Shown: positions 1 through 39,793 of the stretch, piece by piece
Layout: every line of letters begins with the position of its first letter
Numbering within the stretch: position 1 is the first letter of the stretch
Sequence record: NC_048136.1
Direction: 5' to 3' (one strand)
From: Escherichia phage Ro45lw
DNA length: 39,793 nucleotides
Translations under genes and position numbers: made by a program
The notes under the pieces: generated by a model
The model's database searches: none
What the model saw: only the letters and a program-made list of their open reading frames with translations
Told to the model about the DNA's origin: nothing

Positions 1-190
1 TCTCACAGTTCAAGAACCTCAAGTCTCCCCATAGGCCCTCTTTCAGTCCAGACTCAAGGCCCTACCCCTAGACCTTCGGTCTAAACCTCAAGTCTTTGAC
101 CCAAGGTTGACCCGAAGTCTGGACCGATATGGCCTATATCTAGTGGCTGGGACGATGGGTCGGGACTATATGTTGTGTCTCCGAGTCTCT
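1..190. repeat. Left direct terminal repeat (190 bp)
   Basis: Bases 1-190 recur exactly at 39604-39793 (read by eye); terminal redundancy is typical of T7-like genomes. Confidence 0.9.
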
Positions 191-11919: not shown

Positions 11920-12450
11920 ATGCGTAATCTCATAAGCGGCAAGACCCTCATTGAGTTCCAGAATCAGCTTGGCCCTAAGGAGGGCCTTAGCGTCTTCACT
12001 ACCCGTTGCACCGGGAGAACTAAGGGCCGCGCACTACTGGTCATCTCCACGGTCATGGCCCAAGGTTCTATGGACATCGGGCCTCTGCGTGGTAATCTAG
12101 GTGACGATGAGGTCAATCAGACCAAGGTGGAAATCATCAAGTCCCTTGACCAGATGCAGCTCGTGGGCTTCTCGTGGTCTGGTGACGTCCTGTCTTACTA
12201 TCCATTTGAGGAGTATCAAGATGTTAAAGAAGTGGTCCGAGAAGTTGAGGTCCAAGTATCACCTTTCGCTGGCGAAGTGGTATCACCACGAAGCTACCGT
12301 GTTGTCGAACATTCTGAAGGACCAGCGCTTCCAGTCGATAGCTTGGAACAAAGCTACCCAGAAGTGCGCGTATCATCTGGCGAGAGTCCTGTAGTCCCGA
12401 TGGAGGTCATCGAACCTCTGGTCCCGGACATGACGCCTCCGAACGCTTAA
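11920..12450 (+). CDS. Hypothetical protein, 176 aa (gene 4.3-4.7 region)
   Basis: Strong RBS AAGGAG before ATG; acidic and proline-rich C-terminus; no recognisable domain. Confidence 0.5.
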   Translation: MRNLISGKTLIEFQNQLGPKEGLSVFTTRCTGRTKGRALLVISTVMAQGSMDIGPLRGNLGDDEVNQTKVEIIKSLDQMQLVGFSWSGDVLSYYPFEEYQDVKEVVREVEVQVSPFAGEVVSPRSYRVVEHSEGPALPVDSLEQSYPEVRVSSGESPVVPMEVIEPLVPDMTPPNA

Positions 12451-14538: not shown

Positions 14539-15136
14539 TAACATCATGGTGCACATTAAATCTGGTGAACTCGGTGAACTCCTAATGGGACAATACCGAG
14601 CCAAGCCATAGGGAGGATGTATGAGAGGCAAGAAGTTAATTCTTGAGGCCACTGAGACTGGCTGCATAATCCCTACGTCACATAAATTGAATCAGGATGG
14701 ATACTTCCGAAAGAGGACTAACGGTGTCCTTGAGATGTATCATAGAACTGTATGGATTAAAGCTAATGGTCCAATACCTGACGGTTTCGAAGTAGACCAC
14801 AAGTGTCGTAATAGAGCTTGTTGCAACGTCGAACATCTACAAGTATTAGACCGGGACTCACACTTAGTCAAGACCAACCAAGAGCGATACGCTGCTAGGA
14901 AGCTAGAAGCACGAGACTACTGGGTAGAGACTGGGTGTACTGGAACGAAGTTAGCCGAAGTATTCAATGTGTCGTTCTCAGCCGCCTGTGGGTGGATTAG
15001 AGAGTGGAAGGCGTAGAGACTATCCGAAAGGAGTAGGGCCGTGGGTGAGATTCCCACGTAACCCGAAGCGCCAGACAGTCACCTCAAAGACTGATGATAT
15101 AGTCCGACACTTCCAGTAATGGGAGAATACAGAAAG
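14539..15136 (+). mobile_element. Putative group I intron (598 nt) carrying an HNH homing endonuclease gene
   Basis: Separates two segments that together encode an intact T7-like DNA polymerase; 5' exon ends in T, insert ends in G; P1 candidate 14533-14538/14549-14554; R-like AGAGACTA (15013-15020) and S-like GATATAGTCCGAC (15097-15109). Confidence 0.75.
14621..15016 (+). CDS. Intron-encoded HNH homing endonuclease, 131 aa
   Basis: RBS GGGAGG; HNH-type motif GPIPDGFEVDHKCRNRACCNVEHL; AGA/AGG/ATA-rich codon usage unlike neighbouring genes. Confidence 0.8.
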   Translation: MRGKKLILEATETGCIIPTSHKLNQDGYFRKRTNGVLEMYHRTVWIKANGPIPDGFEVDHKCRNRACCNVEHLQVLDRDSHLVKTNQERYAARKLEARDYWVETGCTGTKLAEVFNVSFSAACGWIREWKA

Positions 15137-17772: not shown

Positions 17773-18016
17773 ATCCATTAGTAAAGCCTTTAAGAAAGTA
17801 GTAGGTGGTGCTCTGAACACCGTAGGTCTGGGACAATCAGCCCCTCAGCCTAAAGCTCAGGACGCTCAGGTAGCTGCTGCTCCGGTAGAAGTGCCTCAGG
17901 ACCAAGTGACTGACGTTGAGACTGATGTGACCGAGACCGATAAGAAGAAGGTCAAGTCAACTGGTAAGCGTGGACTTCAAGTCTCTCGTACCTCTGGTGG
18001 AGGCATCTCTATATGA
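17765..18016 (+). CDS. 7.3: gp7.3-like tail/host-range protein
   Basis: C-terminus GKRGLQVSRTSGGGISI matches T7 gp7.3 (SLSVARSSGGGINI); GTG start with RBS AAGGAG 8 nt upstream. Confidence 0.8.
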   Translation: MGKSISKAFKKVVGGALNTVGLGQSAPQPKAQDAQVAAAPVEVPQDQVTDVETDVTETDKKKVKSTGKRGLQVSRTSGGGISI

Positions 18017-18423
18017 CAGACTGCATACTACATAAGGGCTGCGTTAATAATTCTGGGTATGGCCTGAAGTGGTATGCCGGTAAGCTGCGGGGAGCACACG
18101 TAGTGTCATATCTCAAGAACAAGGGACCTATACCAGAAGGGCTAGTTGTGATGCACTCTTGTGACAACAGATTGTGCGTAAATCCAGAACACCTTAGTGT
18201 TGGGACCTACAGTGAGAACATGATAGACTGTGTTTCCAAGGGACGGAAGAACGCTCCGCATAGTGACAGCCACTACAACTCCAAGCTGAGCGCTGAAGAA
18301 GTTAAGTCCATACGCAAGTCAGGACTAACTGCTACAGAGCTTACAGCCATGTATCCTGGAGTGTCTAGGAGAACGCTGTCTGACGTATTAACAGGTAAAA
18401 CATGGAGGCACGTAGATGGCTGA
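18013..18423 (+). CDS. HNH endonuclease (free-standing, putative homing endonuclease), 136 aa
   Basis: SGYG...GPIPEGLVVMHSCDNRLCVNPEHL motif; paralogous to the ORF at 29244; AGG/AGA/ATA codons. Confidence 0.85.
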   Translation: MTDCILHKGCVNNSGYGLKWYAGKLRGAHVVSYLKNKGPIPEGLVVMHSCDNRLCVNPEHLSVGTYSENMIDCVSKGRKNAPHSDSHYNSKLSAEEVKSIRKSGLTATELTAMYPGVSRRTLSDVLTGKTWRHVDG

Positions 18424-29243: not shown

Positions 29244-29693
29244 ATGAAGAACGGAACAGCCAGTGAGAGACTGGCACGTCTTTCGACTGTAGAAGTAACT
29301 GGCTGTGTCCGATTCACTGGAGGACTCAACAGTAGTGGTTATGGAAACCTATGGGTCGATGGTAAGACAGTTGGAGCGCATCGTGTTGCCTATGAGTTAG
29401 CGAACGGTCCGATACCTAAGGGTAGCGTACTTCGTCACACTTGTGACAACAGGTACTGCGTGAATCCTGAACATTTAGTCTTGGGAACACATCGTGAAAA
29501 CATGGAGGATATGACCAAGCGAGGCCGTCAGGCGAGAGGCTCTAAGATCAGCACGTGTGTGCTGTCCGAGGAGGACGTAAGGTCTATACGCTCAAGTGAT
29601 AAAAGTGGTGTGGAACTGGCACAGATTTTCGGAATCTCACCAGTAACTATTAGTCGAATCAAGAGGAGATTAACATGGCAGCACGTGGAGTGA
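29244..29693 (+). CDS. HNH endonuclease (free-standing, putative homing endonuclease), 149 aa
   Basis: SGYG...GPIPKGSVLRHTCDNRYCVNPEHL; paralog of the 18013 ORF; RBS AAGGAG; sits between genes 15 and 16, where T7 has no gene. Confidence 0.85.
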   Translation: MKNGTASERLARLSTVEVTGCVRFTGGLNSSGYGNLWVDGKTVGAHRVAYELANGPIPKGSVLRHTCDNRYCVNPEHLVLGTHRENMEDMTKRGRQARGSKISTCVLSEEDVRSIRSSDKSGVELAQIFGISPVTISRIKRRLTWQHVE

Positions 29694-32600: not shown

Positions 32601-33571
32601 ACTATCTGCTGGATGCTGGGCGTCAGGGCTTCTTGTCTGACATCGTGGAACACAGCCTGACCGGAAGTAAGCGTAAGTTTGATGACCGCTGGTTGAAGAC
32701 CGCTGGTATCTCAGACGAACAGTGGAAGGGCATTAAGTCCCTCATCCGTGAGTCCGTGACTCGTGGTCCAGACGGGAAGTACACCATCAAGGACAAGAAG
32801 GCGTTTAGTCAGGACCCAAGGTCTATGGACCTCTGGCGTATGGGTGACACCATCGCTGACGAGACACTTCTCCGTCCGCACAAGCTGAGCAACATGGATG
32901 CCAAGGCGTATGGACCTCTGGCGAAGACTGTCTTGCAGTTTAAGAACTTCGTCATCAAGTCCATCAACGGTCGAACCATGCGTACCTTCTACAACGCCAC
33001 CAAGAACAACCGAGCGATGGACGCTGCACTGTCAACGGTTATGTCTATGGGTCTGGCTGGAATGTACTACATGGCTCAGGCGCACATCAAGGCTTACTCT
33101 ATGCAGGACGGTCGTGACCGCGAGTACCTCAAGCAGGCCTTGAACCCGACTATGATTGGCTATGCGGCCCTGTCCCGTAGCTCCCACCTCGGTGGACCTC
33201 TTGGGGTAGCCAACATTCTGGGTGGCATCGCTGGGTATGAGGACACTAAGATGCTCCGCTCGTCTATCCTTCCGCGCTCACCTACCGAGAAGCCTGAACG
33301 TGCCATTACTTATGGTGCTGCCAAGAGCGACCCGGTGATGGGACTGGTGGGTAACTTCCTTGAGCAGGTTCCAGCTTTCGGCTACGCTGCTAACGTTGGC
33401 GCTTCGGCTTACAACTTGGCTGGCTACCTCAAGGCTGACACCCGTGTGAACGAACGAGACTACATGACCGGGATGTATAACACCTTCCGTGAACTGGTTC
33501 CGAACGACCCAATAACTCAGAAGCTCCTACTGGGAACATTTGAGGAACAGGGCATTCACATTAAGGACTAA
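29675..33571 (+). CDS. 16: Internal virion protein gp16-like (ejectosome core protein) with non-T7 N-terminal domain
   Basis: From about aa 133 (GGITPK...STWFGFGGAAEAEV...RLEARETARN...GTYVPHVY...RPEVKARVDE) collinear with T7 gp16; the first ~130 aa lack the T7 transglycosylase motifs. Confidence 0.9.
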   Translation: MAARGVRNNNIGNIRISKDQWEGATGDDGAFVTFDSPDSGVRALAKNLMSYGRQGYDSIEKIINRWAPPNENDTKSYIDSVVSATGIPATQSLDLSNPDVLASLSEAIGYHETGSRYDPEVYKTGVSRALSGAGGITPKTPPVSANVFDALTEGLKAKPKVSLGENLPGVTGMNIEGQAPEAPNESFGEMFYKSTGETLDQREDRSTWFGFGGAAEAEVKNSLLGVAVRAGQTEDSLDVIGDVFNPTRWNDHKWSREELDQIRNAGVLPQYYGVITGGSPQNLTELINLALENQKLDAEKAKAGTGAQLAAGVIGAGVDPLTYVPVAGQVGKGGKLVNKMFTVAAQSGALAGGSELLRTSVAGGDAHVAEAVMGGALFAGGMTAIADGIGKALGRSTNEFAGPATRLEARETARNVDGQDLSRLPIREGEETFSHQGVKFADVPNEPGSVRLEDGSILIGENPLNPKTRQVFDEVIEPERAAAGINLGGLTEIGLKLLRSENPEIRGLAADLVRSPTGMQSGASGKIGTTASDVFERLRAVDHRFYNDIDDAVTEALKDPYFQTNFNRDTGAFRQDIYQRVALAIEDGSGNLKSELTPGELKVYDLLKNQFDAKREMMENPAMFGRVDAKSIFPGSRFKGTYVPHVYSNQMKQLFIKELGSPEALQEAIKKSWLTSYASRPEVKARVDEALMEADPNLTPEGLSAAVDKYANDKAYGISHTDLFERSSVMEENINGLVGLENNNFLEARNLFDSDMSIILPNGQPFSVNSLREWDMDKIVPAYNRRVNGDIAIMAGTGKTTKEMKDAVETLMNRAGDDGKLKGEVSTLRDTLKILTGRARRDGADDAAWNTVLRTMTDLSFFAKNAYMGVQNLTEIGGMLARGNVRALLHGVPMFRDLAFRNKKVGASEIKDLHNVIFGKELDDSIRPSKQDVIDRLRAYSDLSKPVATALGSAKYYTGELAVRSPFTKVLNGTTNYLLDAGRQGFLSDIVEHSLTGSKRKFDDRWLKTAGISDEQWKGIKSLIRESVTRGPDGKYTIKDKKAFSQDPRSMDLWRMGDTIADETLLRPHKLSNMDAKAYGPLAKTVLQFKNFVIKSINGRTMRTFYNATKNNRAMDAALSTVMSMGLAGMYYMAQAHIKAYSMQDGRDREYLKQALNPTMIGYAALSRSSHLGGPLGVANILGGIAGYEDTKMLRSSILPRSPTEKPERAITYGAAKSDPVMGLVGNFLEQVPAFGYAANVGASAYNLAGYLKADTRVNERDYMTGMYNTFRELVPNDPITQKLLLGTFEEQGIHIKD

Positions 33572-33589
33572 ACTATCACTATAGGAAAC
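33567..33589 (+). promoter_or_regulatory. Phage-RNAP promoter (phi17-like)
   Basis: GGACTAAACTATCACTATAGGAAACG. Confidence 0.8.
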
Positions 33590-33636
33590 GGGACGCTACC
33601 ACAGGTCCCATTTATTTCAACACTTAAGGAGGCATA

Positions 33637-35646
33637 ATGGCTAACTCTACGCTGACTAAGTTCCCGTCTGGTCGGGTTCAATATAAGATTAACTTCCCGT
33701 ACCTAGCCCGTGCGTTCGTTGTGGTCACGCTTGTGGTCTCTACGGACCCGACGAAAGACAAGGTGCTGGTCGTAGGGAATGACTATCGGTTCCTCAACGA
33801 GACAACCCTTGAGATTCTGGCAGACCAGACCGGATTCGATATCATCCAGATTCACCGATTCACTTCGACAGAGCTGGTGGTAGACTTCCGTGATGGCTCG
33901 GTGCTGACTGCAAGCGACCTGTCCACAGCGGAGATTCAGGCCATCCATATTGCCGAAGAGGGTCGTGACCAGTCCATCAACCTAGCGTCCGGCTACACTG
34001 AGGAGGCCAAGAAGTACGCCGATGAAGCCAGTGATGCTCTGGAAGGCATTAAGGACATCGTTCAGGATGGGAACTTTGATACTACCTTGCGTCAGGACCT
34101 TCGTAGCGATACAGGCCTTTCCATGATTCACCGCAAGCTGCCGGACATTGGGGCTGTTAACGTTGGGATGGACGCCCTGTTCGGCAATATGCTCAACCCA
34201 GTAGACTTCGGGGCGGACCCGACTGGCAGTGTTGACTCTTACGCAGCTCTCCAGAAGTGGGCCGATGCATGTACTTCGCGTCCTTGGGCCTATGCGTTCA
34301 TCTCAGGCATCTTCAAGGTCAGCCAGCCAGTTACCTTCAGGAACATTAGAGGCATGACAATTTACGGACATTGCTACATCTACCCAACCTTTGACCAAGG
34401 GGACTACGTTGTGGGATTCTGCAACGGAGCAGGGCTACGTATTCACGGTCGGTTCGAGGTGTCTGGACAGAACAAGGTTAGCATTAAGACTGGTGTTAAG
34501 ATTTGGTCGGACATGAATCCTAACGGTTTCTCCTTCAGTTACTTCTATGGAATGTGTGTGTCCGATGCTAATCCGGGTATTACCCTTGGTGATACTCGAT
34601 ATGCTAACGCACTTCTCTCTGAGCTGTCCTTCATTGGTGGATATACCGTAGGAACCCCATGCTCAATTAAAGCTATCGGCACTCAATGCTACTTCAACGT
34701 GATTGGATTCGATGCGGTGACTGGGGGTGCTGGCGATTTAGCACAGGTAACGCCGTATACCTACCACCTTAAGGGTGCTCAGATGAAAGTCATTGGCGGA
34801 GAGATTCAGCATAATGATTCAATCGTGGGTGCTGCAATACTGTTGGAGCCTATCGTCGACCCTGTGCATGGCAACACCTATGGTAACGTTACAGTGGATC
34901 AGAGCCACTTTGAGGTTGCTAGTACGTGGGTTATGGTGGCAAACCTTGACGGAGTTCCTAACCCAATCAGCCACCGTTCGTCTGTGACGTTAATCGGACT
35001 TCACGGTTACCACAATCAGGATAATGGACCTGTGGTCTTGGTCCATGAGTCAGCTGATGATTATCGTGGCACAATCGTGACCCGTGACATCTCAATGTAC
35101 CGTGGAGACGATTCACCGGACCGTGTGAACATGAACATTCAGGCCCGCAACGCTTACGTCGATTATGACCGCAAGGGATTCGGTAAAGGCTTCGTGAGAG
35201 GACTTCAGGCTGTTCAGGGTGGAGTACTTAAGTTCGAGAAGTCCACTATATGCATCGCTCAGAACTCAGTAGGTCAGACTCATACGACTGCACCTAACAA
35301 CGTTCTGTACACCCAGTTCATCGCCAATGGGGACACTGACCGCTGGTCTTCCAACTACAATCCTGCGACTGGTGAGTTTACTGTTCCGGCTGGTGGGCTA
35401 AAGGATGTTCATGTGGAGGCAACTGTGGAGGTCGCTAGTTCAAGTCAGGTGACTATGGCTGTCTACGTGGACAACGACCGTAAGAACCTCGTTCAGACCC
35501 TGCCTGTAGCTGGTAACACTTCTGCATATCTGGGTCACCTCCCAGCAGGGGCTAAGATTAGCGTTAAGTGTCAGCTAGGTACTGGCTCAGGTGCATCTAC
35601 TGGCGCAGGTCTTGACCGAATGGTCATCACCGCTTCAAACTATTAA
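33637..35646 (+). CDS. 17: Tail fibre / tailspike with T7-like N-terminal anchor and beta-helix (pectate-lyase-like) C-terminal region
   Basis: N-terminal ~150 aa align with T7 gp17 ([33 protein letters not shown]); downstream [24 protein letters not shown] resembles pectate-lyase-type depolymerase domains. Confidence 0.85.
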
Positions 35647-35661
35647 GGGAGAGAGAGAGAG

Positions 35662-35856
35662 ATGATTGAATTAGATTTTAAGAACGAGGCATTAAAGGCA
35701 TCGCCTATCGTCGGGACCGCAGCGGCTGATGGTGCCAGTCGGTTCTTCTTTGGGCTTACACTCAACGAGTGGTTTTACGTAGCCGCTATCGCGTACACCG
35801 TGGCGCAGATTGGCGTCCTCATCTACAAGACGATTAAGAGTGGAGGTAAGACATGA
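35662..35856 (+). CDS. 17.5: Holin (class II, T7 gp17.5-like)
   Basis: FFGLTLNEWFYVAAIAYTVAQIG nearly identical to T7 holin; preceded by a (GA)n purine tract acting as RBS. Confidence 0.85.
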   Translation: MIELDFKNEALKASPIVGTAAADGASRFFFGLTLNEWFYVAAIAYTVAQIGVLIYKTIKSGGKT

Positions 35857-36116
35857 CGCAGATGGACTTAGAGAAGTTCCTCTTAATGCTGGACACTGAA
35901 CGTGCTCGACTCATGCTGCAAGACCTGCGGGATGACTCCAAGCGTTCACCTCAGCTTTATAACTCCATCGAGAAGCTTCTGGCCCGTCACAACTTTGTGT
36001 TGAGCAAGGTGTCTGTGGACGAGAAGCAGTTGGCAGACATGGAGGCGCTGAACAGGGAGTACGATAAGGTGCTCTCAGCTACTGAGGATAATGACACCGG
36101 GTATGGTGTACAGTAA
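35853..36116 (+). CDS. 18: Terminase small subunit
   Basis: FLLMLDTERARLMLQDL...RSPQLYNSIEKLLARH aligns with T7 gp18. Confidence 0.85.
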   Translation: MTQMDLEKFLLMLDTERARLMLQDLRDDSKRSPQLYNSIEKLLARHNFVLSKVSVDEKQLADMEALNREYDKVLSATEDNDTGYGVQ

Positions 36117-36120
36117 GTGT

Positions 36121-36167
36121 TAGACTCAAGGTCATCTACTACATATAGTGGGTGGCCTTTATGATTA
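36121..36167 (+). promoter_or_regulatory. RNase III-type processing hairpin
   Basis: TAGACTCAAGGTCATCT...GGTGGCCTTTATGATTAA, third copy of the motif. Confidence 0.5.
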
Positions 36168-36218
36168 ACACTATGCGAGATGCGCTCTCGTGAAATCTGA
36201 GAAACAAGGAGGGCAACT

Positions 36219-36656
36219 ATGCTCAAACTTTTACGACAGGCCGTCCCTTGGCTGGTGGCAGGACTCCTGTTCTGTTCTGGCTACTGGGTGGCAGACAATA
36301 AGTGGGAGGCGAAGGTAAACAATGAGTACATCACGAAACTTGAGGCACGAGAGAATCAACGGGCTGCTGTCCAAGGTGAAATCGACAAAGTGTCAGCAGA
36401 GTGGCAAGACAAGATGTCCGCGCTGGAAGGCTCTACTGATAGGATTATTGCTGACCTTAACCGCGATAACAAGCGGTTGCGCGTCAAAGTCAACACCTCA
36501 GGTCTCACCGAGCGAGATATCAGTCGATGCTTCCCTAATGGTAGAGTCGAACTACACCCAGAAACTTCTAAAAGTCTTATCCGAATAGCTCAGGAGGCAG
36601 ACCTTAAGGAGAAGGCGCTTCAAGACACAATAAGGAGGCTCCAAGGTGTTAAGTGA
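36219..36656 (+). CDS. 18.5: Rz-like i-spanin
   Basis: N-terminal transmembrane segment ([16 protein letters not shown]) then a charged coiled-coil region; RBS AAGGAGGG. Confidence 0.8.
36322..36588 (+). CDS. 18.7: Rz1-like o-spanin, embedded in Rz in a +1 frame
   Basis: Hydrophobic stretch [16 protein letters not shown] followed by Cys (lipobox-like) and a Pro/Ser-rich segment; start uncertain (ATG 36322 or GTG 36376). Confidence 0.5.
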   Translation: MSTSRNLRHERINGLLSKVKSTKCQQSGKTRCPRWKALLIGLLLTLTAITSGCASKSTPQVSPSEISVDASLMVESNYTQKLLKVLSE

Positions 36657-36709
36657 TTACTACATTAGAGGAGGCTATCTCTGTCCGGGACCTAATGCTG
36701 GAGGGCTCT

Positions 36710-38476
36710 ATGTCTAAGAAAACACCTGCTGAAAGACAGGCTGAAATGACCCAAAGGATGCGGGATGACTTCGTGTTCTTCATCTTCGTTCTCTGGAAAG
36801 CGCTGAGCCTTCCGGTTCCAACCAGATGTCAGATAGATATGTGTAAGAAGCTGGCTGCTGGCGATAACCGACGCTTCATCCTTCAGGCGTTCCGTGGTAT
36901 TGGCAAATCGTTTCTGACCTGTGGTTTCGTGGTCTGGAAGCTATGGAACAACCCAGACTTGAAGTTCATGATTGTGTCAGCCTCAAAGGAACGTGCTGAC
37001 GCGAACTCCATCTTCATCAAGCGAATCATTGACCTGATGCCTCAGCTCCAAGAGTTGAAGCCTAAGCAGGGGCAGCGAGATGCTGTTATCAGCTTCGACG
37101 TTGGGCCAGCCAAACCAGACCACTCACCCTCGGTTAAGTCCGTTGGTATCACTGGTCAGTTGACTGGTAGTCGTGCTGACATCCTGATTGCCGATGACGT
37201 GGAGGTTCCAAACAACTCAGCGACTCAGGCTGCACGAGACCGTCTGTCAGAGCTTGTAAAAGAGTTCGATGCTATCCTGAAGCCGGGAGGTACAATCATC
37301 TATCTGGGCACTCCTCAGAACGAGATGACCCTGTATCGTGAGCTAGAAGGACGTGGGTACTCCACTACTATCTGGCCAGCTCGTTATCCGCGCGACAGGA
37401 AGGACTGGCAGTCTTACGGCGACCGTCTGGCTCCTATGCTTCAGGCAGAGCTTGAAGAGGACCCTGAGTCCTTCTACTGGCGTCCGACCGATGAGGTACG
37501 CTTCGATGATACGGACCTGAAGGAACGTGAGCTGTCATACGGTAAGGCTGGCTTCGCTCTACAGTTCATGCTTAACCCTAACCTGAGTGATGCAGAGAAG
37601 TACCCACTGAAGCTCCGTGACCTTATCGTAGCAGACTTGGACCCAGCGTCTAGCCCAATGGTCTACCAATGGTTGCCGAACCCTCAGAACAAGCGTGAGG
37701 ACGTTCCTAACGTTGGACTCATGGGTGACTCGTACCACACGTATCAGACTGTAGGTTCTGCCTTCAGTTCGTACACCCAGAAGATTCTGGTCATTGACCC
37801 TAGTGGTCGTGGTAAGGATGAAACTGGTTATGCGGTACTATACCAGCTCAACGGCTACATCTTCGCTATGGAAGTTGGTGGTATGCGTGGTGGGTATGAA
37901 GACTCTACGCTGGAAGCATTGGCTAAGATTGGTCGTAAGTGGAAGGTCAACGAATACGTCATTGAGGGTAACTTCGGTGATGGTATGTACCTTGAGCTAT
38001 TCAAGCCTGTAGCGGCCCGTATCCATCCTGCGGCTGTAACTGAAGTGAAGAGTAAGGGTCAGAAAGAACTCCGCATCTGTGACGTTCTGGAGCCTATCAT
38101 GGGGTCTCACAGACTTATCGTTAACGCTGCTGCTATCGTCCAAGATTACCAGTCAGCCTCTGATAAGGACGGTGTTCGTAACCCTATCTACTCTCTCTTC
38201 TACCAGATGACCCGTATCAGCCGTGAACGTGGGGCCTTGGCTCACGATGACCGACTTGATGCTCTGGCTATCGGTGTACAGTTCTTCGTAGAGTCTATGG
38301 CGAAGGATGCCGTAAAGGGACAGCGTGAAGTCACTGAGGAGTGGCTGGAGGAGCAGATGGAGGACCCACGGAAAGGCTTCAAGTCCATCGAGACTGACTA
38401 CTGGGACAATGGGGTCAGGGTCCAGTTCAATACAGATGATGACTTAGGCTTGGGGTCCTACGTACAATTTCATTAA
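36710..38476 (+). CDS. 19: Terminase large subunit
   Basis: [37 protein letters not shown] (Walker A), [55 protein letters not shown] match T7 gp19; ATG 36710 gives a T7-like N-terminal length, GTG 36653 is the alternative. Confidence 0.9.
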
Positions 38477-38485
38477 GGAGGTATA

Positions 38486-39028
38486 ATGGCAAAGGCGAAG
38501 GACATCGACAGGGTGTCCCTCTTTGACCACTACGCATACGTTGACGGACAGTTGGTGTGCAGGAAGCCTTATGGCAGCTCGAAGAAGACTCCGGGTGAGC
38601 CTATGGGCTTCTCTGTACACCCTTCCGGCTATGCGATAGTGAAAGTGCTCGGAAGTCGTTACAGGCGCTCTCGCATCATCTACAGTCTAGCTGTGGGTCG
38701 AATCCCGAATGGTATGCTGGTTGACCACATCAACGGTGACAGACTGGATGACAGGCCAGAGAACTACAGGCTGGTCACTGAGTTGGAGAACCGATGGAAC
38801 TCCGCAGGTGGCGAGTCTAATGGTCTCCCTAAGGGTATCAGCTTCTTCAAGCCAACCGGGAAGTATCGCGCTCAGTTGCGACTTCAGGGTAAGTGCTTCA
38901 CTAAGACTTCGGACTCCATAGAGGAGCTTGAGGTCTGGCTGGAGGACTTAAGGTCAGAGAAGCACAAAGAATACTCAGTAAGCCTACGGTCCCCTAAGCG
39001 TGATAGGACCCGTAGAAACCACAAGTAA
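38486..39028 (+). CDS. HNH endonuclease with AP2-like DNA-binding region (putative homing endonuclease), 180 aa
   Basis: GYAIVKV...RRSRIIYSLAVGRIPNGMLVDHINGDRLDDRPENYRLVTELEN is an HNH core; RBS AAGGAGG; AGG/AGA/ATA codons. Confidence 0.8.
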   Translation: MAKAKDIDRVSLFDHYAYVDGQLVCRKPYGSSKKTPGEPMGFSVHPSGYAIVKVLGSRYRRSRIIYSLAVGRIPNGMLVDHINGDRLDDRPENYRLVTELENRWNSAGGESNGLPKGISFFKPTGKYRAQLRLQGKCFTKTSDSIEELEVWLEDLRSEKHKEYSVSLRSPKRDRTRRNHK

Positions 39029-39041
39029 AATCAGGCAGTTA

Positions 39042-39064
39042 ACTTAACTATCACTATAGGGATG
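39042..39064 (+). promoter_or_regulatory. Phage-RNAP promoter near the right end (phiOR-like)
   Basis: AACTTAACTATCACTATAGGGATG. Confidence 0.75.
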
Positions 39065-39207
39065 GGGGACTACAGGGGGGGACCTACTATATGCCGACCA
39101 AAAGTTAGCAATAGAGTAGACTCTAAGTTCTCCTCTCAGTCGTGAGGGTAGTGATGATAATCACCCTCATAACTTAAGTAGACCCTAAGCGACAGGAGGT
39201 ATGTAGC

Positions 39208-39366
39208 ATGGGTAAGACCAAAGCTGTTCTCAAAGCTCTGGCGACCAATCGAGCTACATACAGGTTTCTTGCTGCTGTTCTACTTGCTGCTGGCGTTACT
39301 GCTGGAAGTCAGTGGGTCGGGTGGGTCGAGACTCTCGTATGTACTCTGGTGTCTGAGTGTCATTAA
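39208..39366 (+). CDS. Small hydrophobic ORF, 52 aa (gene 19.5 position)
   Basis: RBS CAGGAGG 7 nt upstream; predicted membrane-like segment FLAAVLLAAGVTAG. Confidence 0.4.
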   Translation: MGKTKAVLKALATNRATYRFLAAVLLAAGVTAGSQWVGWVETLVCTLVSECH

Positions 39367-39526
39367 CGCCATCATGGTAACAATCAACGAAAGACGGACC
39401 TAAGGTCAGTTCATAGCTGACGCTACTCTACTGACCTTAGCTACTGTAGTCAAGGACTTTAGGTAACACCTTAAGAGAAGCTCACTTAGGGTCATCCTAC
39501 TTACTGGTCTACCCTAGTGTCGCCTG

Positions 39527-39567
39527 ACCTACGGTCCTTGACCTACAGTGGCTGTGGCCTACAGTAG
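39527..39567 (+). repeat. Short direct repeats CCTAC(A/G)GT (3 copies) immediately inside the right terminal repeat
   Basis: cctacggtcc, cctacagtgg, cctacagtag; related to the CCTACAGTCA array at the left end. Confidence 0.5.
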
Positions 39568-39603
39568 GGACGATGAGTTTTGGACCAAAAGTTTGAGACC
39601 ACA

Positions 39604-39793
39604 TCTCACAGTTCAAGAACCTCAAGTCTCCCCATAGGCCCTCTTTCAGTCCAGACTCAAGGCCCTACCCCTAGACCTTCGGTCTAAACCTCAAGTCTTT
39701 GACCCAAGGTTGACCCGAAGTCTGGACCGATATGGCCTATATCTAGTGGCTGGGACGATGGGTCGGGACTATATGTTGTGTCTCCGAGTCTCT
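39604..39793. repeat. Right direct terminal repeat (190 bp)
   Basis: Exact copy of bases 1-190. Confidence 0.9.

What the first reader, a model, noticed from the sequence alone, without database searches (positions are those of the whole stretch)
38486..39028. HNH-AP2-type endonuclease between terminase L and the right-end promoter
A fifth nuclease gene (HNH core DHINGDRLDDRPENYR with an AP2-like region) sits where T7 has only the small gene 19.5. HNH proteins adjacent to terminase genes are known in other phage groups as packaging co-factors, so this one could be a homing endonuclease or have a packaging role.
Basis: partly seen in the sequence, partly recalled or inferred. Interest (0 to 1): 0.5.

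Follow-up and report, generated by a model that had tools for sequence, protein, structure and literature searches.

The report
Mobile HNH-AP2 homing endonuclease gene
The gene after the large terminase of this T7-like (Kayfunavirus) phage is an intact, optional, horizontally moving HNH-AP2 homing endonuclease of a well-known selfish-gene family, not a DNA-packaging helper, so it is real but ordinary.

Summary

The window is a complete Kayfunavirus genome with 190-bp direct terminal repeats. About 13 of 223 related phage records carry this gene, always at this locus. The rest have the T7-like layout: gene 19, about 95 nt, phiOR, gene 19.5.

The HNH+ allele (38477..39161, 685 nt) replaces 244 nt of the HNH- allele, and its left edge is the terL stop codon. 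Both alleles occur on both backbone types. CHRF_30001 (+) and SFPH2 (-) have 96-100% identical flanks. CHRF's HNH is 92% identical to that of pO91, whose left flank is only 71-81% identical. All nine orthologues compared are intact, with dN/dS 0.05-0.13.

This fits a free-standing homing endonuclease. The packaging-cofactor idea fails every feature tested: no CX2C dyads, a T7-type TerL, a non-cos genome, and absence from most relatives. Orthologues are already annotated as HNH (homing) endonuclease. Interest is low.

The parts
36653..38476 (+). Left flank: large terminase (gene 19). Not part of the element, but its stop codon is the exact left boundary of the cassette. The gene is mosaic, switching from K1F/GA2A-like to Dev2/CHRF-like at about 38150-38250.
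   Evidence: Pfam Terminase-T7_RNaseH-like E=7.9e-38; sliding identity; boundary
38477..39161 (+). HNH+ allele (mobile cassette): RBS, HNH-AP2 ORF, phiOR-type promoter, G-run motif and about 80 nt of unique sequence. HNH- relatives have an unrelated 244 nt here, and only the 21-nt promoter core is shared.
   Evidence: Alignment A1; junction listing; blastn of cassette against HNH- alleles
38486..39028 (+). HNH-AP2 endonuclease gene, 180 aa
38510..38665 (+). N-terminal helix plus beta-strand region (residues about 9-60), equivalent to the I-HmuI N-terminal DNA-contacting sheet
38666..38800 (+). HNH_3 (His-Me finger, HNN type) catalytic core, residues 61-105. D80/H81/N93/N102 correspond to I-HmuI D74/H75/N87/N96.
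   Evidence: Pfam HNH_3 residues 61-102; residue mapping from the alignment; invariant in 9 orthologues and in A2
38822..38965 (+). AP2-fold DNA-binding domain (residues about 113-160: three strands and one helix)
38978..39025 (+). Basic C-terminal tail (RSPKRDRTRRNHK), low model confidence
   Evidence: translation; pLDDT 58-80
39040..39062 (+). Phage RNA polymerase promoter (phiOR equivalent), +1 G at 39059
   Evidence: one of 8 matches to CTAAACTATCACTATAGGGA in the window; T7 phiOR sits in the same relative position
39064..39084 (+). Tandem G-run motif GGGGGAC-N4-GGGGGGGACC just after the promoter +1. It contains the only G7 run in the genome and is linked to the HNH gene in the eight HNH+ relatives where this region could be read.
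39208..39366 (+). Right flank: gene 19.5 (52 aa), 100% identical at protein level to HNH- Dev2/SFPH2/SH4

Best explanation
This is a free-standing homing endonuclease gene of the HNH(HNN)-AP2 family. It travels as a 685-nt cassette between the stop codon of the large terminase gene and the hairpin upstream of gene 19.5.

Shown:
- The protein has an intact I-HmuI-type His-Me finger nuclease core, an N-terminal beta-sheet DNA-contacting region and a C-terminal AP2 DNA-binding fold.
- The cassette is an optional allele of a fixed locus.
- It has moved between divergent Kayfunavirus backbones.
- Selection keeps the protein intact.

Inferred:
- The gene has no promoter of its own between terL and its RBS, so it is probably co-transcribed with gene 19 as a late gene.
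- In a mixed infection with an HNH-less relative, the enzyme recognises a sequence found only in the HNH- allele and nicks or cuts there. I-HmuI-type enzymes are nickases.
- The likeliest target is the roughly 150 nt from the terL stop to just past phiOR. pO91 keeps the right-hand part of the HNH- allele alongside the HNH gene, so that part is an unlikely target.
- The T7-type recombination machinery then repairs the break from the HNH+ genome, copying the cassette and sometimes flanking terL or right-end markers.
- The practical effect would be preferential inheritance of the cassette and the right genome end, that is, marker exclusion.
For: Domains:
- Pfam HNH_3 E=1.6e-14 and PHROG 99 E=1.7e-37.
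- A2 profile against I-HmuI 1U3E E=1.5e-11, with D74/H75/N87/N96 aligned to D80/H81/N93/N102.
- AF2 pLDDT 89.4.
- 11/53 homologues hit Pfam AP2.

Optional allele:
- 223 related records match the flanks, but only about 13 carry the gene.
- The intergenic distance is 288-297 nt in eight HNH- genomes and 731-744 nt in seven of the eight HNH+ genomes measured (838 nt in the hybrid pO91).
- Only the promoter core is shared between the alleles.
- T7 has the HNH- layout.

Mobility:
- HNH+ genomes are polyphyletic on the terL tree.
- Both alleles occur on both Dev2-type and K1F-type flanks.
- CHRF_30001 (+) and SFPH2 (-) are 96-100% identical on both sides of the cassette. CHRF's HNH is 92% identical to pO91's, whose terL 3' flank is 71-81% identical.
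- The window's flanks are 95% and 99% identical to HNH- Dev2.
- A backbone switch lies about 250 nt upstream of the gene.

Functionality:
- Nine of nine orthologues are intact at 180 aa, the catalytic block is invariant, and dN/dS is 0.05-0.13.

Family behaviour:
- Homologues lie after RNAP in a Serratia T7-like phage, between tail genes in Rtp, and beside an integrase on a metagenomic contig.

Literature:
- HNH+AP2 is a recognised homing-endonuclease family. Homing endonuclease genes cluster next to essential genes, including terminase, and mark recombination boundaries (PMC10448857).
- HNN-AP2 genes without CX2C dyads are dispersed and behave like homing endonuclease genes (PMC2248197).
- Orthologues are annotated 'HNH homing endonuclease' (JSS1).
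Against: - No cleavage site, nuclease activity or homing event has been shown for this orthologue group. The target is inferred.
- No degenerate copies were found, and the alleles are deeply diverged (dS 0.7-1.5) under strong constraint. A purely selfish element passing through a gain-decay-loss cycle would be expected to leave some decayed copies. This leaves room for a benefit to the phage.
- No long co-conversion tract is visible next to the cassette in CHRF_30001, whose flanks stay SFPH2-like right up to the stop codon.
- These genomes are mosaic everywhere, so the breakpoint near 38200 in the window is not specific evidence for homing.
Confidence: 0.8

Rival explanations
1. Packaging co-factor. 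Like HK97 gp74, staphylococcal phiSLT HNH or Skunavirus HrdP, the HNH protein works with the terminase to cut concatemeric DNA during packaging.
For: - The gene lies immediately next to terL and is probably co-transcribed with it.
- It is close to phiOR and the right end. From memory, this region belongs to the T7 packaging signal.
- Packaging HNH proteins next to terminase genes are documented (PMC12967558, PMC3592412; Kala 2014 as cited in PMC10448857).
Against: - The gene is absent from about 94% of related genomes, including near-isogenic SFPH2 and Dev2.
- The genome has 190-bp direct terminal repeats, not cos ends.
- TerL is T7-type, not Terminase_1. Kala et al. tie the HNH requirement to Terminase_1, as quoted in PMC8861465.
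- The protein has only two Cys and no CX2C dyads. It is HNH_3/HNN-type with two sequence-reading DNA-binding modules, whereas packaging HNH proteins are about 100-aa, non-specific, CX2C-type proteins (PMC2248197, PMC3592412, PMC12967558).
- It sits downstream of terL, not upstream of terS at a cos site.
Confidence: 0.03
2. Retained because it benefits the phage. It is still a sequence-specific nuclease, but it is kept mainly as a weapon against co-infecting HNH-less relatives (interference competition, as shown for a PhiPA3 intron endonuclease), or for another advantage such as stimulating recombination at the genome end, rather than by selfish drive alone.
For: - Purifying selection is strong (dN/dS 0.05-0.13), three lineages are deeply diverged, and no decayed copies were found.
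- Precedents exist: PMC11620839 (competition) and PMC13096335 (SegB-driven amplification of anti-defence loci).
Against: - The gene is rare, about 6% of related records, which argues against a large general advantage.
- Active homing alone also produces purifying selection.
- Sequence data cannot separate this from plain homing.
Confidence: 0.13
3. Regulator rather than nuclease. The AP2 domain binds the linked tandem G-runs just downstream of the phiOR-type promoter and modulates right-end transcription, and nuclease activity is vestigial.
For: - The tandem G-run motif is linked to the gene in the eight HNH+ relatives where this region could be read. It includes the only G7 run in the genome and lies directly after the promoter +1.
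- AP2 domains of HNH-AP2 proteins favour GC-rich DNA (PMC10448857, citing Magnani 2004).
Against: - The catalytic residues D80, H81, N93 and N102 are invariant among orthologues and across the wider family.
- A 21-nt promoter core is too short for recombination to break the linkage, so linkage of the G-runs to the gene may be trivial.
- No binding evidence exists.
Confidence: 0.04

Closest known systems
I-HmuI (Bacillus phage SPO1 intron-encoded HNH nicking endonuclease; PDB 1U3E)
   Different: I-HmuI is intron-encoded, and its C-terminus is a helical/HTH module rather than an AP2 fold. Overall identity is about 20%. Nicking activity is known for I-HmuI and only inferred here.
HNH(HNN)-AP2 homing endonucleases of phages, cyanobacteria and protists (Magnani et al. 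2004; 'HNN-AP2' genes of Xp10/OP1/Xop411, T1, Rtp, T5; IPA-HNH of ICP1)
   Same: The N-terminal HNH plus C-terminal AP2 architecture is the same. Both lack CX2C, are free-standing, and are sporadic and dispersed. T1, Rtp and Xp10 genes are direct tblastn hits. See PMC2248197 and PMC10448857.
   Different: Those relatives are only 30-40% identical and sit at other loci. ICP1 IPA-HNH domains are too divergent for the Pfam HNH_3 profile, whereas this protein is a canonical HNH_3.
Orthologues at the same locus in Kayfunavirus PE3-1 (gp20), JSS1, CHRF_30001, phiYIO1-1, pO91, SR04 and others
   Same: They share the same locus, the same 180-aa length and 82-91% amino-acid identity. They are annotated 'HNH endonuclease' or 'HNH homing endonuclease'.
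   Different: The window's copy is a distinct allele, 86% nt identity to the nearest (CHRF_30001). None of these has been characterised experimentally as far as the searched literature shows.
Packaging-associated HNH proteins (HK97 gp74, phiSLT, GVE2, Skunavirus HrdP)
   Same: They belong to the His-Me finger superfamily and are encoded next to terminase genes.
   Different: Those are roughly 95-130 aa, CX2C zinc-binding, non-specific proteins without a separate DNA-binding domain. They are universally conserved and essential within their phage group, lie next to cos and terS, and work with Terminase_1 TerL (PMC12967558, PMC3592412, PMC2248197, PMC8861465). None of this applies here.
The other HNH gene upstream of terL in some Kayfunaviruses (Hafnia phage Ca ORF48 / CR44b; also phiYIO1-1 gp48 and pO91)
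   Same: It is an optional HNH gene abutting terL in the same genus, which shows that terL is flanked by homing-endonuclease hot spots (PMC8861465).
   Different: It sits on the other side of terL, belongs to a different family member (about 41-49% identity over the HNH core only) and is not present in this window.

Membership tests
HNH_3 / I-HmuI-like His-Me finger endonucleases | beta-beta-alpha-metal core with a D-H general base and Asn metal ligand (HNN variant) | tested here: met
HNH_3 / I-HmuI-like His-Me finger endonucleases | No CX2C zinc-binding dyads | tested here: met
   The protein has only two cysteines (C25, C136), neither in a CX2C motif (sequence).
HNH_3 / I-HmuI-like His-Me finger endonucleases | Site-specific nicking or cleavage activity | not testable with these tools
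   Needs purified protein and DNA substrates.
HNH-AP2 homing endonucleases (Magnani 2004 type) | N-terminal HNH plus C-terminal AP2 DNA-binding domain in one polypeptide | tested here: met
HNH-AP2 homing endonucleases (Magnani 2004 type) | Sporadic presence/absence among close relatives with horizontal spread | tested here: met
   About 13 of 223 records carry the gene. HNH+ genomes are polyphyletic on the terL tree. Near-isogenic flanks occur with and without the cassette, and the cassette is shared across divergent flanks.
HNH-AP2 homing endonucleases (Magnani 2004 type) | Cleaves the endonuclease-less allele and is copied into it by gene conversion | not testable with these tools
   Requires in vitro cleavage mapping and mixed-infection crosses.
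Packaging-associated HNH proteins (HK97 gp74 type) | Small HNH protein with two CX2C zinc dyads and no separate sequence-specific DNA-binding domain | tested here: not met
   No CX2C. The protein is 180 aa with two extra DNA-binding modules. Features of the type are from PMC3592412, PMC2248197 and PMC12967558.
Packaging-associated HNH proteins (HK97 gp74 type) | Encoded next to a cos site and terS in a cos phage with a Terminase_1 TerL | tested here: not met
   The genome has exact 190-bp direct terminal repeats. TerL is Terminase-T7_RNaseH-like with a weak Terminase_6N hit. The gene lies downstream of terL.
Packaging-associated HNH proteins (HK97 gp74 type) | Conserved in all members of the phage group (essential) | tested here: not met
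   The gene is absent from about 210 of 223 related records, including K1F, Dev2, SFPH2 and GA2A, and from T7.

The most novel reading that the evidence does not exclude
The cassette is more than a selfish gene. Its AP2 domain binds the co-inherited tandem G-run motif directly downstream of the cassette's own phiOR-type promoter. The nuclease would then nick there, close to the right terminal repeat, giving HNH+ phages an optional boost to T7-type concatemer processing or right-end replication and recombination. That would make it a DTR-phage analogue of the HNH-terminase partnership known only from cos phages. The evidence does not exclude this: the G-runs are tightly linked to the gene, the protein is under unusually strong and long-term purifying selection, and no decayed copies were found.
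Probability: 0.04. Interest if true: 0.65.

Novelty: already known. Interest (0 to 1): 0.15.

Why it matters
It matters little beyond correct annotation. The gene should be labelled a free-standing HNH-AP2 homing endonuclease, not a packaging factor.

The locus is, however, a tidy natural example of a homing-endonuclease cassette. It has sharp boundaries (terL stop codon to the 19.5 hairpin) and has moved between Kayfunavirus backbones. It could serve as a simple model for homing and marker exclusion in T7-like phages, because near-isogenic +/- pairs such as CHRF_30001 and SFPH2 already exist.

For phage engineering or therapy, it marks a dispensable 685-nt slot after gene 19. It may also bias inheritance of the right genome end in phage cocktails.

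Tried and rejected
- Pfam AP2 on the protein itself: no hit at E<=1. AP2 had to be established through homologues and structure.
- phmmer of the single sequence against PDB: only noise. The A2 profile was needed to reach I-HmuI.
- Word-indexed homologue search: only 5 hits. The exhaustive search gave about 25,000.
- IMG/VR scan with the protein: no close relative. The single hit was a 34%-identity locus, which I did not pursue.
- Remnants of the HNH gene in HNH- alleles: none found by tblastn or short-word blastn apart from the promoter core. The HNH- allele is therefore not a recent deletion scar.
- Co-conversion tract next to the cassette: none is clear in CHRF_30001 against SFPH2. The window does have a backbone switch about 250 nt upstream, but the genome is mosaic throughout, so I do not count this as specific evidence.
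- Sigma-70 promoter and intrinsic terminator scan of 36000-39793: nothing above shuffled expectation, and no terminator between terL and the HNH gene.
- RNA folds of the allele boundaries: only modest z-scores, -1.3 to -2.6. These are not interpreted further.
- ORF 11920..12450 gave a weak tblastn hit to the AP2 region. It belongs to PHROG 18700, of unknown function, and has no Pfam domain, so I rejected it as a relative.
- The primary papers Kala 2014 (PMC4000778) and Magnani 2004 (PMC520932) are not held. Their content is cited through secondary sources.

Full report
**What is there**

The window is a complete 39,793-bp phage genome with exact 190-bp direct terminal repeats (1-190 = 39604-39793). 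It belongs to the genus Kayfunavirus (K1F-like, Autographiviridae, Studiervirinae).

ORF 38486..39028 (+, 180 aa) is real. It has an AAGGAGG ribosome-binding site and begins 10 nt after the stop codon of the large terminase gene (36653..38476). A phage RNA polymerase promoter follows it. This promoter is TAACTTAACTATCACTATAGGGA at 39040-39062, with +1 at 39059. It is one of eight matches to the phage's promoter consensus. Gene 19.5 comes next, at 39208..39366.

In T7 the order is gene 19, 99 nt, phiOR, gene 19.5.

**Domains**

- Pfam finds HNH_3 (PF13392) at residues 61-102, E=1.6e-14. PHROGs places the whole protein in phrog_99, 'HNH endonuclease', E=1.7e-37.
- An exhaustive HMMER search finds about 25,000 representatives at E<=1e-3. 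Many are 150-190 aa and align over residues about 10-164.
- A profile of 53 of these (A2) hits the SPO1 intron nickase I-HmuI (1U3E), E=1.5e-11. The match covers its N-terminal DNA-contacting strands and the HNH core. I-HmuI D74/H75/N87/N96 align with D80/H81/N93/N102 here.
- Pfam AP2 does not hit the window protein itself. It does hit 11 of the 53 aligned homologues in the homologous C-terminal block.
- The AlphaFold model is confident (pLDDT 89.4). It shows a three-strand-plus-helix unit at residues 118-159.
- The protein has only two cysteines and no CX2C dyads.

It is therefore an HNN-type HNH nuclease with an AP2 DNA-binding domain. This architecture is already described as a homing-endonuclease family (PMC10448857 citing Magnani 2004; PMC2248197).

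**Distribution**

A 1.8-kb query spanning the terL 3' end, the gene and the right end matches 223 phage records. Most match in two pieces at about 62% coverage, meaning the gene is missing. Only 13 records encode an orthologue at >=80% amino-acid identity, all at this same locus. Several of these are annotated 'HNH endonuclease' or 'HNH homing endonuclease'.

In eight HNH- genomes the terL-to-19.5 spacer is 288-297 nt. In seven of the eight HNH+ genomes measured it is 731-744 nt, and pO91 has 838 nt.

In the window the HNH+ allele spans 38477..39161 (685 nt) and replaces 244 unrelated nucleotides. The only shared island is the 21-nt promoter core. No HNH remnants exist in the HNH- alleles.

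**Mobility**

- On a terL nucleotide tree the HNH+ genomes are polyphyletic. K1F and GA2A (-) nest among HNH+ phages, and CHRF_30001 (+) groups with the HNH- Dev2/SFPH2 clade.
- Both alleles occur on both flank types.
- The cleanest case is CHRF_30001 (+) against SFPH2 (-). They are 96-100% identical over the last roughly 570 nt of terL, right up to the stop codon. They are again 99-100% identical from the 19.5 hairpin onward, yet they differ by the whole cassette.
- CHRF's HNH gene is 92% identical to that of pO91. pO91's terL 3' flank is only 71-81% identical to CHRF's.
- pO91 is also a hybrid. It carries the HNH cassette, a (CA)n run and the right-hand part of the HNH- allele.
- The window's own flanks are 95% (38200-38400) and 99% (39100-39500) identical to HNH- Dev2. 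Its HNH gene is only 86% identical to the nearest copy.
- The window's terL switches from K1F/GA2A-like to Dev2/CHRF-like about 250 nt upstream of the gene. This agrees with the reported tendency of nuclease genes to sit at recombination boundaries (PMC10448857). However, the genome is mosaic in many places, so I give this little weight.

**Functionality**

All nine orthologues compared are intact at 180 aa, with an invariant catalytic block. Pairwise dN/dS is 0.05-0.13 and dS is 0.3-1.5 for the non-trivial pairs. They fall into three sub-lineages. The protein is therefore being kept functional.

**Family behaviour elsewhere**

The nearest non-Kayfunavirus homologue (49% identity) lies beside an integrase on a metagenomic contig. 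Other homologues lie after the RNA polymerase gene of a Serratia T7-like phage, near a repressor in a Pseudomonas phage, and between minor tail genes in Rtp. The family has no general link to terminase.

**Packaging hypothesis**

Packaging-type HNH proteins (HK97 gp74, phiSLT, Skunavirus HrdP) have these features:
- They are small, CX2C-containing and non-specific.
- They are universally conserved and essential within their group.
- They lie beside cos and terS, and they work with Terminase_1 enzymes.
(PMC12967558, PMC3592412, PMC2248197; Kala 2014 as quoted in PMC8861465 and PMC10448857.)

Every testable feature fails here:
- The protein has no CX2C.
- It carries two sequence-reading DNA-binding modules.
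- TerL is T7-type (Terminase-T7_RNaseH-like).
- The genome has direct terminal repeats.
- The gene is absent from about 94% of relatives.

The natural HNH- relatives effectively are the deletion experiment.

**Likely mechanism**

The following steps are inferred. The gene has no promoter of its own and no terminator precedes it, so it is probably made late, together with terminase. In a mixed infection, the enzyme would recognise and nick or cut a sequence unique to the HNH- allele. By analogy with I-HmuI it is likely a nickase.

pO91 tolerates the right-hand part of the HNH- allele together with the gene. The target is therefore more likely in the roughly 150 nt from the terL stop to just past phiOR, or in the extreme terL 3' end. 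Recombinational repair from the HNH+ genome would then copy the cassette.

**A small unexplained feature**

A tandem G-run motif sits immediately after the promoter +1 (39064-39084). It includes the genome's only G7 run and is linked to the gene in the eight HNH+ relatives where this region could be read. AP2 domains of this family are reported to favour GC-rich DNA (PMC10448857). This could be a self-binding site, or it could be simple hitch-hiking.

**Verdict**

The homing-endonuclease reading is supported and the packaging reading is not. The gene is an orthologue of already annotated HNH endonucleases and belongs to a well-known family, so novelty and interest are low.

Noticed in passing
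window 14621..15016, 18013..18423, 29244..29693: Three further HNH_3 genes lie after DNA polymerase (T7 gene 5.3 position), before the portal gene (7.7 position), and between genes 15 and 16. They belong to other PHROGs (6254, 1872/59) and have no AP2 domain. The 29244 copy has an HTH-like C-terminus. The gene 15/16 copy is present in GA2A but absent from Dev2 and CHRF_30001, so it is also optional.
   Followed up: partly
window 36653..38476 (terL), switch near 38150-38250; also 33500-36700: The genome is strongly mosaic. The terL body is 93-97% GA2A/K1F-like, while its last roughly 250 nt and the right end are Dev2/CHRF-like (95-99%). The tail-fibre gene region (33600-35600) matches GA2A only.
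   Followed up: partly
L009 (phiYIO1-1) 1-239; L008 (pO91) 1-242; literature PMC8861465: Some Kayfunaviruses carry a different HNH homing-endonuclease gene immediately upstream of terL, overlapping the Rz gene and the terL start. In Hafnia phage Ca it was seen to delete spontaneously. In this genus terL is therefore flanked by two homing-endonuclease hot spots. The window lacks the upstream one.
   Followed up: partly
window 39064..39084: A tandem G-run motif (GGGGGAC-N4-GGGGGGGACC) lies directly after the phiOR-type promoter +1. It holds two of the genome's seven G>=5 runs and its only G7. It is conserved, with length variation G5-G7, in the eight HNH+ relatives where it could be read. HNH- alleles have GACCCCCGG at the equivalent place.
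   Followed up: partly
L008 (pO91), between the HNH stop and gene 19.5: pO91 has a hybrid allele: the HNH cassette, then a (CA)9-10 microsatellite, then the right-hand roughly 100 nt of the HNH- allele. This looks like an illegitimate or secondary recombination joint.
   Followed up: no
L002 (Dev2) 2150-2215 and equivalents in K1F/GA2A: The HNH- allele contains a roughly 75-nt segment (…ATGCAAGACCTTAGGAGGCAGACTCCTGAGTTCTTACCTAAGG…) that is almost identical between the Dev2 and K1F clades despite 15-25% divergence in the flanks. It folds into a hairpin (z about -2.6). Its function is unknown, and it is dispensable in most HNH+ genomes.
   Followed up: partly
window 1-190 and 39604-39793: Exact 190-bp direct terminal repeats show that the window is a complete, correctly terminated T7-like genome.
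   Followed up: yes
window 11920..12450: A 176-aa ORF between the helicase and DNA polymerase genes has no Pfam domain and belongs to PHROG 18700 (unknown function). A weak tblastn hit to the AP2 region was not borne out.
   Followed up: yes
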